Source of the DNA: Trypanosoma brucei
Taxonomy: Eukaryota
Direction of reading: 5' to 3'
Length of the DNA: 64,000 bases
NCBI GenBank assembly: GCA_000002445.1
Contig: CM000207.1
Span: 64,001 to 128,000, forward strand
A program made the position numbers. Below, in pieces: positions 48,301-51,300 of this stretch. Each line of letters starts with the position of its first letter. Position 1 is the stretch's first letter.

Positions 48301-51300
48301 TTCCACCAGCGTCTGAACCTCAAGAAATCCAGAAGATCATCAACACATTGTCGGCGATCAACTTCACACTAATGGATGATCTGACAAGATCAACAGTTGA
48401 AAAGAACAAGTAGAAAACCTGAGAACAAATTCAATCTGAACACACAGGGGAGACATTATATTTCGGCGACCATTAGGACAAGTGGACTCGAGTAGCTAAA
48501 CTGCCGGAAACTGACCCCGAGGCTCTGGCCCTGAAAGACTGGGAACGACACAGAGCTAACAACAACTTAAAAAAACAGATTAAAAGCCTACTATAGGAGG
48601 CACTCGCGCTGGACAAAGAAGCAGCGAACGCCAAAGAAGACCTCAAAGTGGCGAGCATAACGAACCTCCAAGAAGCAGCGCTATACGGCAGTCCTGGAAA
48701 ATCGGTGGAGCTGAAAACCACGGACGACCGCAAAGGATACTTCGGCAAAGGCAGCACAGACGGGGCGGCGGCCGGCGTAGGTGCCACGGACTCACTCTAC
48801 GCGACAATACTTTGTCTATGCGCTGGGGCGACCGGCGACGAGGCGGGCGGCAAAGGCTGCTGCCTTGACTGCCAGTCAGGGGCGAATGGGGCAGCATGGA
48901 CGCCAACCAGCGCCGGCAAGGCCAGAGCCGAATTTCTAGCATCAAAGTGCCCGGCAGCCTTGATACCCGAACATCCAACAACGACAGAACTAAATCACCG
49001 GCTACGGGCCGTCTACAAGCTGGCACTAGGCACCACGAGCAACACCCAGACGATTAAATATACTGTCGGAAAAGTATCAGGCACGGGTGAAGACGGTTGT
49101 GGCGGGGAAGTCACGGGAACGATAGGCAGGTGCGTCAAATACACTGCCGAGCAAATTCTTGAAGACGAAGCCTCGCTCAAGTAGCGACAAAGCCTCAAAG
49201 CCGCCGCCAAACTTTATGACAAGCAAGCGCAGGCTAAAATAACAATGTATAGACTGGCAGACAAGCTAAGACTGATAAACGCAACAGCGGCCGCACTGTA
49301 GCACACCACACTCACTTAAACCCAAATATAGCCAATGAGCAGAACTGACGCGGCCACCAAACCAACTACAAGCTGCAGCGAACGCAAAAGCAACAAAAGC
49401 ACATGTGAAAATACAGGTAAATGCAAATGGGATGGAACTGAAGAAACCAAAGGAACATGCAAACCTAAAGAGGGAGCAGGAAAGACAAACACAGCAGGAA
49501 CAGAGGGAGCTGCAGCAACGAATGTCGAATAAAAAAATGCTCTGAAAAAAAAAAGACAAATGATTTCAAAGACGGTTAAAAATGGGATGGAACAAAATGC
49601 AAATATAATTATGACTAACCTAACTTGGTATGGAAAGTTTGAAATGACCAAGAAAAAAAGCAACCTGAATCTGTGGAATTTAAAAACTCTAGAAGTTCCG
49701 GGAGAGAGATTAGATTTTACTTATGAGAGTGTTTGAGCTGACGCCTTTAAGGAAGAGGATTTGTTCAAACTATGGAAAGTGTGACCAAAAAAATAACAAA
49801 TATAATTTTGTGATTGTAAATTGATTCATACTTTATGTAGAAGAGTTGAACGACTTGAGTAAATTACTGTTATCATCAGTGACAACCATTTCTTACACGC
49901 ACACACGAAGATACAGAAGCTACATACCACCTCAAAGATTTTACGTATCAAAGGAATAATCAACAGGGAAAACGACAGAAATTAGTCTTGACTTGTGGCG
50001 AAGCATGCGCATCCAAATACTCGTGAAAGTGGCAACGGCACTACTAGTACAGGCGTCACTAAACGCACCGTTCACTTTGGACGACACCAACATAGGCAGA
50101 AAAGTCACGATGGCCTGCGATGCTATGCAGTATCTGGATGCCAATACTGCCAAATACGCCGACAAAGTCCAAGAGCTGACAGCCGCGTTAGAACAGAATA
50201 TACATACACTAAAAATGTAGAAACTTCAGCACTGTAGAACAACAGGTTACGATATAAAAGCTGTCCAAGCACTCATAAGCTACCGCAACATTAATGTTAC
50301 AACAAGCAGGCAGCGTAGCAGTGGTCTCTCAAAAAGCTTTGTCCTCATCGGCCACAACAAGAAAGCAAATTGGGGTCACCTCACTATTCAGCGTCCTACA
50401 GGAGACAACTTTCAATGACGCGGATACAGCGATAACAGAAACGGCAGAAAGAACAACCCAGTCACAGTTAAGCTAAAACTAACAGCTAACTCAGGGGCAG
50501 CATGCAAAGTAGCCGAACGAGGCAAAGTAGGGGACAAAATGCATCTCCTGGGAAGCAGCAAACAGACCAACATTCCGTTGGTAGTAGACGCAACACTGCA
50601 GCCGACAAACCCAACACCTTCGCCGCAAATGAAATGCGGCGGCAAACCAAGCAGAACGAGCCCGCAATAGACGAGCGCGGCCCAAGCAGCCGGTTGCTCC
50701 GCAGAAACGCAGCCCGGCCTGATTTCGTTTTCCATGAGCAGCGGCAAAATTTCGGCAAGCAATCGGTGACCAAAACTTAAATAAAAGACGAAGCTGCTGG
50801 TGCTGGCCCTTGTCCAACAGACGAAGACATACGGAAGACAACCATCCCGACAGAGAAACAAGTACGCGCAGCAATATGCAAAGGGGACGACATTCTGGAA
50901 ACAGCAGCAGGGAAGCTAGACCAGCTCAGCCAAGCAGACCTCAAAACCAAAACGCCGCTCAAGGAAGCGACCCAAGCAATGTTTGACTTAAGTACAGACG
51001 ATGAAGACGCTTACAACAAATTGATCACTAAACTATACACCGGTAACGAAAAAAAATTCAAAAAACGTTTATAACCAACCCCGGAAAACAGACAACAGAA
51101 TATGAAGTCGGCAAATCGAAGGAGAGAAAGGCGCTCAATGAGCTGGAGAAGGAGGCGAATTTTGCATCTGGCCTTGGTCATCTTACCAAAACAGACTATA
51201 GGAACCGTAACGCAAAGGCCAAACCCGATACACAGAAGGCCATCGCAGAGGAAAAAACAGAGGAAAATAAATGTGAAAAGAAAACAACAGGGGTAAATTG

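What the first reader, a model, noticed from the sequence alone, without database searches (positions are those of the whole stretch)
49300..50000. A cassette junction that has lost its 70-bp repeat and 3'UTR, leaving truncated VSG 14, an ESAG-like fragment and VSG 15
This is the only adjacent VSG pair with no 70-bp repeat and no 16-mer between them. VSG 14 ends in its Cys-rich CTD (…CKPKEGAGKTNTAGTEGAAATNVE*) with no FLVNKK/GPI tail. Then follow about 240 nt homologous to the 3' end of the ESAG-like gene. The signal peptide of VSG 15 begins at 49993. This is the signature of a deletion or illegitimate recombination that removed a GPI signal, 3'UTR, 70-bp repeat and most of an ESAG-like gene. 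Such junctions are natural places for novel chimeric ORFs to form.
Basis: seen in the sequence. Interest (0 to 1): 0.55.

Follow-up and report, generated by a model that had tools for sequence, protein, structure and literature searches.

The report
Truncated VSG pseudogene fused to ESAG3 remnant
In this silent trypanosome surface-antigen gene array, one dead antigen gene has lost its tail and the usual spacer elements and is joined directly to the last 180 bases of another dead gene (ESAG3); this is an ordinary recombination scar of a kind already well known in these arrays.

Summary
The window is a Trypanosoma brucei-type silent VSG array.

- **VSG 14** (48159-49603) is a B-type VSG pseudogene. 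Its C-terminal domain does not end at 49532. It runs on in another frame to ...CKWDGTKCK, ending at 49603, exactly where four other VSGs in the window continue with the [12 protein letters not shown] signal.
- **ESAG3 remnant:** from about 49604 to 49781 the sequence matches the last 63 codons of ESAG3 (residues 306-368 of 368).
- **Spacer and VSG 15:** a unique 223-nt spacer follows, then VSG 15, whose ATG is at 50005, not 49993.
- **Missing elements:** profile searches, pairwise alignment against shuffles and base composition find no 70-bp repeat and no 16-mer or 3'UTR between the two VSGs. All 17 other gaps that follow a VSG in the window have a 70-bp repeat.
- **Junction:** it lies in GCAAA (49599-49603), which both parental sequence types share. 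That fits microhomology-mediated joining, the known end-joining route in T. brucei. About 2.1-2.3 kb is missing relative to the intact layout.
- **No meaningful chimeric ORF:** the fusion is out of frame.

This is an ordinary scar in a decaying array, not a new system.

The parts
46743..46807 (+). Degenerate, partial 70-bp repeat upstream of VSG 14. It is the only 70-bp repeat serving the VSG 14 + VSG 15 pair.
   Evidence: nhmmer with the 70-bp profile, E 8.6e-7, not in the training set. Local alignment score 46 against about 25 for controls.
48159..49603 (+). VSG 14: a B-type VSG pseudogene. It has a signal peptide, an N-terminal domain and both C-terminal subdomains. There are 8 internal in-frame stops and one frameshift at 49527-49555. 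It is truncated right after ...CKWDGTKCK, so the GPI-anchor signal is missing.
   Evidence: Pfam VSG_B E 2e-50 and Trypan_glycop_C positions 1-83 of 104. Stops listed. CTD-end motif comparison. Paralogue P0016 is 53% identical.
49599..49603 (+). Junction. GCAAA is shared by the VSG CTD end (TGCAAA|GATTCC, invariant in four VSGs of the window) and by ESAG3 (AAAGCAAA|GTTGATT in the copy at 25262-25276). This is a putative microhomology. The junction is resolved to about +/-10 nt.
   Evidence: Alignments. The blastn alignments from the two sides overlap at 49589-49606.
49604..49781 (+). ESAG3 3' remnant, corresponding to residues ~306-368 of the 368-aa protein and ending at the ESAG3 stop position. 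It carries one in-frame stop and is in a different frame from the VSG 14 CTD.
   Evidence: tblastn with ESAG3 P0001: 49590-49781, E 2e-7. blastn to 25255-25455, 65.5%, E about 3e-18, and to 44151-44335. Identity to the two full-length pseudogene copies is 67% and 59%.
49782..50004 (+). AT-rich spacer between the ESAG3 stop and the VSG 15 ATG. It has no detectable relative in the window, no 70-bp repeat and no 16-mer.
   Evidence: blastn and local alignment against shuffles. No Rfam match.
50005..51470 (+). VSG 15: a frameshifted VSG pseudogene with an intact-looking CTD and GPI signal (...CKDSSFLESKKFLLIAAAISRLVEF*).
   Evidence: Related to EATRO1125 VSG ORFs P0017 and P0018 (E 2e-121 and 2e-48; tblastn 71% and 88-91% identity). 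Pfam Trypan_glycop_C 23-103 of 104, E 4e-12.
51474..51701 (+). Degenerate 3'UTR (51474-51545) and a strong 70-bp repeat (51582-51701) that close the unit downstream of VSG 15.
   Evidence: 3'UTR profile E 0.031. 70-bp profile E 6e-22.

Best explanation
This is a recombination scar in a silent subtelomeric VSG array of Trypanosoma brucei.

The inferred ancestral layout is VSG - GPI signal - 3'UTR with 16-mer - 70-bp repeat - about 0.9 kb - ESAG3 pseudogene - VSG. That layout is seen intact twice in this window.

After a DNA break, the end of the VSG 14 C-terminal domain (...TGCAAA) was joined to codon ~306 of the ESAG3 pseudogene (...GCAAAG...) through a short shared sequence. This is microhomology-mediated end joining. 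About 2.1-2.3 kb was lost: the GPI signal, the 3'UTR, the 70-bp repeat and the first ~83% of ESAG3.

The product does nothing actively. VSG 14 could not make an anchored coat protein even if its stops were repaired, because its frame ends ...CKYNYD*. VSG 15 has no 70-bp repeat of its own. The two pseudogenes therefore sit as one compound unit between the 70-bp repeat at 46743-46807 and the 3'UTR and 70-bp repeat at 51474-51701. They can contribute to antigenic variation only as donors of internal segments for mosaic gene conversion.

Shown: the anatomy, the absence of the elements, and the position of the junction. Inferred: the ancestral layout, the break, and the use of microhomology.
For: - VSG identity and truncation at the CK|DSS boundary.
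- ESAG3 identity of the fragment and of the two full-length pseudogene copies.
- Absence of the 70-bp repeat and of the 16-mer/3'UTR by three independent methods, with positive controls.
- Intact reference layouts at 21994-27090 and 40783-46460.
- GCAAA is shared by both parental sequence types at the junction.
- Literature: T. brucei end joining is exclusively microhomology-mediated, using 5-20 bp with mismatches tolerated. MMEJ-type deletions and ESAG3-flanked deletions are already noted in expression sites (PMC3045614).
- Literature: an ESAG3 pseudogene lying 3' of the 70-bp repeat is known in BES7 and BES15 (PMC2567434).
- Literature: array pseudogenes act as segmental donors (PMC12137147).
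Against: - Microhomology is inferred from paralogues that are only 60-67% identical. The other ESAG3 copy has GAAAA, not GCAAA, at this spot, so a 5-nt overlap could be chance.
- The missing ~2.2 kb is larger than the experimental MMEJ deletions in T. brucei (81-948 bp in total, PMC3045614).
- The spacers between ESAG3 and the next VSG are not conserved among the three cassettes, so the ancestral layout is an analogy, not a demonstrated homologue.
- No orthologous array could be retrieved.
Confidence: 0.6

Rival explanations
1. One-sided microhomology-mediated gene conversion instead of in-situ deletion. The ancestral locus was 70-bp repeat - ESAG3 pseudogene - VSG 15. A VSG cassette copied from elsewhere invaded by homology in the 70-bp repeat (46743-46807). 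Its 3' end did not resolve in the usual CTD/3'UTR homology. It resolved instead by microhomology inside ESAG3, overwriting the first ~83% of ESAG3 with VSG 14 minus its GPI signal.
For: - The final structure would be identical, with the same GCAAA junction.
- RAD51-dependent one-sided MMEJ gene conversion has been demonstrated in T. brucei (PMC3045614).
- It avoids the need for a deletion larger than those seen experimentally.
- The 70-bp repeat upstream of VSG 14 is partial, with only profile positions 53-118 matched, as might be expected of a recombination end point.
Against: No donor copy of VSG 14 or of its upstream 1.35 kb is present in the window or in the protein databases; the best relative is 50-53% identical. 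Nothing in the sequence itself discriminates this from deletion.
Confidence: 0.3
2. Assembly artefact. Two unrelated array segments were joined wrongly in a repeat-rich subtelomere.
For: VSG arrays are notoriously hard to assemble, and no reads are available here to check.
Against: - Mis-joins occur across long shared repeats. Here the two sides share at most ~5-20 nt of imperfect similarity.
- The junction lies in unique, diverged sequence. The ESAG3 fragment is only 59-67% identical to the other copies.
- There is no composition or repeat anomaly.
Confidence: 0.03
3. The intervening elements were never lost but decayed in place beyond recognition. On this view the GPI signal, 3'UTR and 70-bp repeat are still present as unrecognisable sequence.
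For: Other cassettes in the window do have quite degenerate 3'UTRs and 70-bp repeats. Examples are 35907-36020, 46743-46807 and 51474-51545.
Against: - There is no room. VSG-type sequence runs to 49603 and ESAG3-type sequence starts within a few bases of it.
- ESAG3 codons 1-305 (about 0.9 kb) are absent.
- The only unassigned stretch (49782-50004) lies downstream of ESAG3, not between the VSG and ESAG3, and scores at or below shuffle level against 70-bp repeats.
Confidence: 0.02

Closest known systems
C-terminally truncated VSG pseudogenes and gene fragments in T. brucei subtelomeric arrays
   Same: It is a B-type VSG with premature stops, one frameshift and a deletion. [quoted passage not shown]' (PMC3467770).
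   Different: Here the truncation point and its partner sequence can be mapped to within a few bases. The loss also takes out both flanking recombination elements: the 3' 16-mer region and the next 70-bp repeat.
MMEJ-based deletion and one-sided MMEJ gene conversion in T. brucei (Glover, Jun & Horn 2011, PMC3045614)
   Same: It is a junction between non-homologous sequences at a short shared motif, with no inserted bases and with loss of the intervening DNA. That paper already points to putative microhomology deletions in expression sites and to ESAG3 pseudogenes as deletion end points.
   Different: The experimental deletions were 81-948 bp and used 5-20 bp of microhomology. Here about 2.2 kb is missing and only ~5 nt of exact overlap can be inferred, from diverged paralogues and not from the true parents.
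[quoted passage not shown] 2008, PMC2567434)
   Same: The order 70-bp repeat - ESAG3 pseudogene - VSG is the one seen twice intact in this window, and it is the order inferred as the ancestor of the scar.
   Different: This is a silent internal array, not a telomeric expression site. Only the last 63 codons of ESAG3 remain.

Membership tests
Variant surface glycoprotein (VSG), B-type, pseudogene | N-terminal domain matching the VSG_B profile | tested here: met
   Pfam PF13206, E 2e-50, profile positions 10-350 of 352, on the stop-masked translation of 48159 onward.
Variant surface glycoprotein (VSG), B-type, pseudogene | Cys-rich C-terminal domain | tested here: met
   PF10659 positions 1-83 of 104. 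The motif ...CKWDGTKCK is in register with four other CTD ends. Two of the Cys codons of subdomain 2 are mutated, to F and to a stop.
Variant surface glycoprotein (VSG), B-type, pseudogene | C-terminal hydrophobic GPI-anchor signal (DSSFLVNKK...LLF) | tested here: not met
   It is absent. The sequence after CK reads YNYD*PNLVW, and the Pfam match stops at position 83 of 104.
Variant surface glycoprotein (VSG), B-type, pseudogene | Open reading frame | tested here: not met
   There are 8 internal in-frame stops and one frameshift, so this is a pseudogene.
Canonical array VSG cassette | 3'UTR with the conserved 16-mer TGATATATTTTAACAC downstream of the VSG | tested here: not met
   The best match in 49500-50010 has 6 of 16 mismatches. 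The 3'UTR profile gives no hit at E<=200.
Canonical array VSG cassette | 70-bp repeat upstream of each VSG | tested here: not met
   None lies upstream of VSG 15. VSG 14 has a partial one at 46743-46807.
ESAG3 | Sequence homology to expression-site-associated gene 3 protein | tested here: met
   The fragment matches residues 306-368 of P0001 with E 2e-7. The full-length window copy matches the ESAG3 cluster at 61% identity, E 4e-143.
ESAG3 | Full-length (368 aa) open gene | tested here: not met
   Only the last 63 codons are present, with one in-frame stop.
MMEJ junction | Short identity (5-20 bp) shared by both parental sequences at the breakpoint, with no filler DNA | tested here: inconclusive
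   GCAAA is shared by the VSG CTD consensus and by one ESAG3 paralogue. The other paralogue has GAAAA. The true parents are not available.
MMEJ junction | Dependence on the MMEJ machinery and independence from RAD51 | not testable with these tools
   This is a historical event and would need genetics.

The most novel reading that the evidence does not exclude
The junction is a natural fossil of one-sided microhomology-mediated gene conversion. A VSG cassette was copied from a 70-bp repeat and terminated inside an ESAG3 pseudogene. This created a compound two-VSG unit, bounded by one 70-bp repeat and one 3'UTR, that would be mobilised as a single 4.7-kb block. It would be field evidence that this laboratory-defined pathway reshapes the silent archive.
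Probability: 0.25. Interest if true: 0.3.

Novelty: already known. Interest (0 to 1): 0.1.

Why it matters
It matters little beyond annotation. The junction documents, to within a few bases, one way in which array VSGs lose the flanking homology needed for whole-gene duplicative transposition. Those flanks are the 70-bp repeat upstream and the CTD/3'UTR downstream. After the loss, such genes can serve only as segmental (mosaic) donors.

A genome-wide catalogue of such junctions and their microhomologies could quantify how much MMEJ contributes to archive decay. This single case adds no new principle.

Tried and rejected
- **Hidden 70-bp repeat or 16-mer.** By eye, 49808-49850 (TTGTGATTGTAAATTG...AGAAGAG) looked faintly like a 70-bp core. 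I rejected this: nhmmer gives no hit at E<=100, and the alignment score is below the shuffle mean.
- **Orthologous arrays.** Exact-protein look-ups gave nothing for three intact VSGs of the window, for the 178-aa VSG 14 ORF and for P0017.
- **Homology searches.** These found only VSGnome ORFs without genomic context, so deletion and conversion could not be separated.
- **Spacer conservation.** The spacer 49782-50004 was compared with the spacers downstream of the other two ESAG3 pseudogenes. Similarity was no better than shuffles.
- **Nucleotide support for CTD subdomain 2.** Under harsh scoring, nucleotide-level significance is weak (summed score reached by 21 of 500 shuffles). The case therefore rests on the protein motif in register and on the extent of the Pfam match.
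- **Pfam and PDB on the VSG 15 N-terminal pieces.** Neither gave a convincing match. Its VSG identity came from the VSGnome relatives instead.
- **Rfam on 46000-52500.** Nothing was found.
- **Chimeric ORF.** None is longer than 58 codons across the junction.

Full report
**Context**

The window is a head-to-tail array of VSG genes and pseudogenes on the + strand.
- Conserved 16-mers (TGATATATTTTAACAC; 15 matches at <=3 mismatches against 1.1 expected) and 70-bp repeats separate the units.
- ORF pieces match Pfam VSG_B and Trypan_glycop_C.
- The nearest database proteins are T. brucei VSGs and ESAG3.
- This is the silent subtelomeric VSG archive of Trypanosoma brucei.

**VSG 14**

VSG 14 starts at ATG 48159 with a signal peptide (MKLCIFRSVFIAVLQIF...). 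It stays in one frame to 49532, with 8 internal stop codons.

With the stops masked, it matches VSG_B over the whole profile (E 2e-50) and the VSG C-terminal domain profile over positions 1-83 of 104.

The VSG sequence in fact continues. After a frameshift in the A-runs at 49527-49555, the second Cys-rich subdomain reads KKCSEKKKTNDFKDG*KWDGTKCK and ends at 49603.

A CTD-end motif of the form [KE]W[DE]G..CK occurs five times in the six-frame translation of the window.
- Four occurrences are VSG ends followed at once by DSSFLVNKK... (the GPI signal).
- The fifth is VSG 14, followed by YNYD*PNLVW.
- At the DNA level, TGCAAA|GATTCCAGT is invariant in those four VSGs. VSG 14 reads TGCAAA|TATAATTATG.

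The GPI signal is therefore cleanly missing from its first codon.

**The ESAG-like sequence**

The full-length copy at 24350-25470 is 61% identical over 97% of its length to ESAG3 (E 4e-143). The matching cluster is named ESAG3 in 427, 927 and gambiense entries.

tblastn with ESAG3 finds three places in the window:
- 24453-25441
- 43397-44348
- 49590-49781, which covers only residues 306-368 (E 2e-7) and ends at the normal ESAG3 stop.

blastn gives 49589-49793 against 25255-25455 at 65.5% identity (E about 3e-18) and a weaker match to 44151-44335. The three 3' ends are 59-67% identical to each other. The fragment is therefore an old paralogue, not a recent copy of either full-length pseudogene.

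Both full-length ESAG3 pseudogenes lie between a 70-bp repeat and the next VSG. The same arrangement is described for BES7 and BES15 of Lister 427 (PMC2567434).

**The junction**

The VSG alignment reaches 49603-49606 and the ESAG3 alignment reaches back to 49589. The overlap exists because the two sequence types resemble each other here:
- VSG: ATGGGAAG...TGCAAAG
- ESAG3: ATGGGAAGATAAAGCAAAG

The spacing between these two shared blocks in the window is that of the VSG. The switch is therefore at GCAAA (49599-49603), after which the ESAG3 codons (N)IIMTNLTWY follow.

The two frames differ. The VSG frame terminates 5 codons past the junction. The only ORF that crosses the junction has 58 codons. 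No meaningful chimeric ORF exists.

**Absence of the usual spacer elements**

- A 70-bp repeat profile built from 16 copies finds all trained copies plus two degenerate untrained ones (35907-36020 and 46743-46807). It finds nothing between 46985 and 51582 at E<=100.
- Local alignment of 49532-50004 to eight repeat exemplars scores 23. The shuffle mean is 25.7, other spacer windows with no repeat score 21-25, and the degenerate positive controls score 46-52.
- A 3'UTR/16-mer profile finds nothing between 48050 and 51411 at E<=200. The best ungapped 16-mer match has 6 of 16 mismatches.
- Normal inter-VSG gaps dip to GC 0.22-0.27 with GC skew of 0.5-0.6. This gap stays at GC 0.33 with skew below 0.3.
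- All 17 other gaps that follow a VSG have a 70-bp repeat. Each repeat-bounded interval holds a single VSG.

**VSG 15**

VSG 15 starts at ATG 50005, not at TTG 49993. EATRO1125 VSGnome ORFs 1125.5744 and 1125.5757 are close relatives (E 2e-121 and 2e-48; tblastn 71% and 88-91% identity). The first begins with the same MRIQILVK.

VSG 15 is frameshifted but keeps a CTD with its GPI signal (Pfam E 4e-12). A weak 3'UTR and a strong 70-bp repeat follow it.

**Mechanism**

Relative to the intact layout, about 2.1-2.3 kb is missing. The estimate adds the GPI signal, the 3'UTR, the 70-bp repeat, about 0.9 kb of spacer and 0.92 kb of ESAG3, using coordinates from cassettes 21994-27450.

T. brucei repairs breaks by homologous recombination or by microhomology-mediated end joining. 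Non-homologous end joining was not seen. MMEJ uses 5-20 bp with mismatches tolerated. A RAD51-dependent one-sided MMEJ gene conversion also exists. Putative microhomology deletions, and ESAG3 pseudogenes as deletion end points, have already been noted in expression sites (PMC3045614).

The junction fits either of two routes:
- an in-situ MMEJ deletion, which I favour (confidence about 0.6);
- a conversion that began in the 70-bp repeat at 46743-46807 and ended by microhomology in ESAG3 (about 0.3).

I could not separate the two. No orthologous array and no donor locus is reachable with these tools. The microhomology itself rests on diverged paralogues.

**Consequence (inferred)**

VSG 14 lacks the downstream homology used for whole-gene transposition, and VSG 15 lacks the upstream homology. 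Both are pseudogenes. They can act only as segmental donors, as shown for array pseudogenes in general (PMC12137147).

**Verdict**

The phenomenon is an ordinary, already-described kind of decay in VSG arrays.

Noticed in passing
window 13039-17425 (- strand): A non-LTR retrotransposon of ingi type lies in the opposite orientation to the VSGs. Its ORF pieces match reverse transcriptase (15527-16726), an endonuclease domain (16805-17425), and RNase H plus a C2H2 zinc finger (13039-14640). It sits between the 70-bp repeat at 11543-11749 and the VSG at 18482.
   Followed up: partly
window 48159-49532: VSG 14 keeps a single reading frame for 1374 nt despite 8 internal stops: 6 TAG, 1 TGA and 1 TAA. 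By eye, four of these stops line up with E or W residues in the paralogue VSG 1125.5681 (P0016). This suggests decay by point mutation only, with no indels until the A-runs at 49527-49555.
   Followed up: partly
window 50005-51259: VSG 15 has close relatives in the EATRO1125 VSGnome. They were deposited as two separate ORFs in different frames: P0017 (1125.5744) and P0018 (1125.5757; 88-91% aa identity). The same split-frame pseudogene structure therefore seems to exist in another strain.
   Followed up: partly
window 24350-25470 and 43397-44348: There are two full-length but stop- and frameshift-ridden ESAG3 pseudogenes. Each lies between a 70-bp repeat and the next VSG. They are only ~64% identical to each other in the 3' 180 nt. 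The spacers from ESAG3 to the next VSG (about 140, 490 and 220 nt) are unrelated.
   Followed up: partly
window 27325-27399: A perfect (ATA)25 tract lies inside the 70-bp repeat region downstream of the VSG at 25583-27090. It is much longer and purer than the triplet tracts of the other repeats in the window.
   Followed up: no
window 32400-34300 and 36020-37400: These are long stretches between a 70-bp repeat and the next VSG with no VSG-like or ESAG3-like coding similarity detected. Their content was not examined.
   Followed up: no
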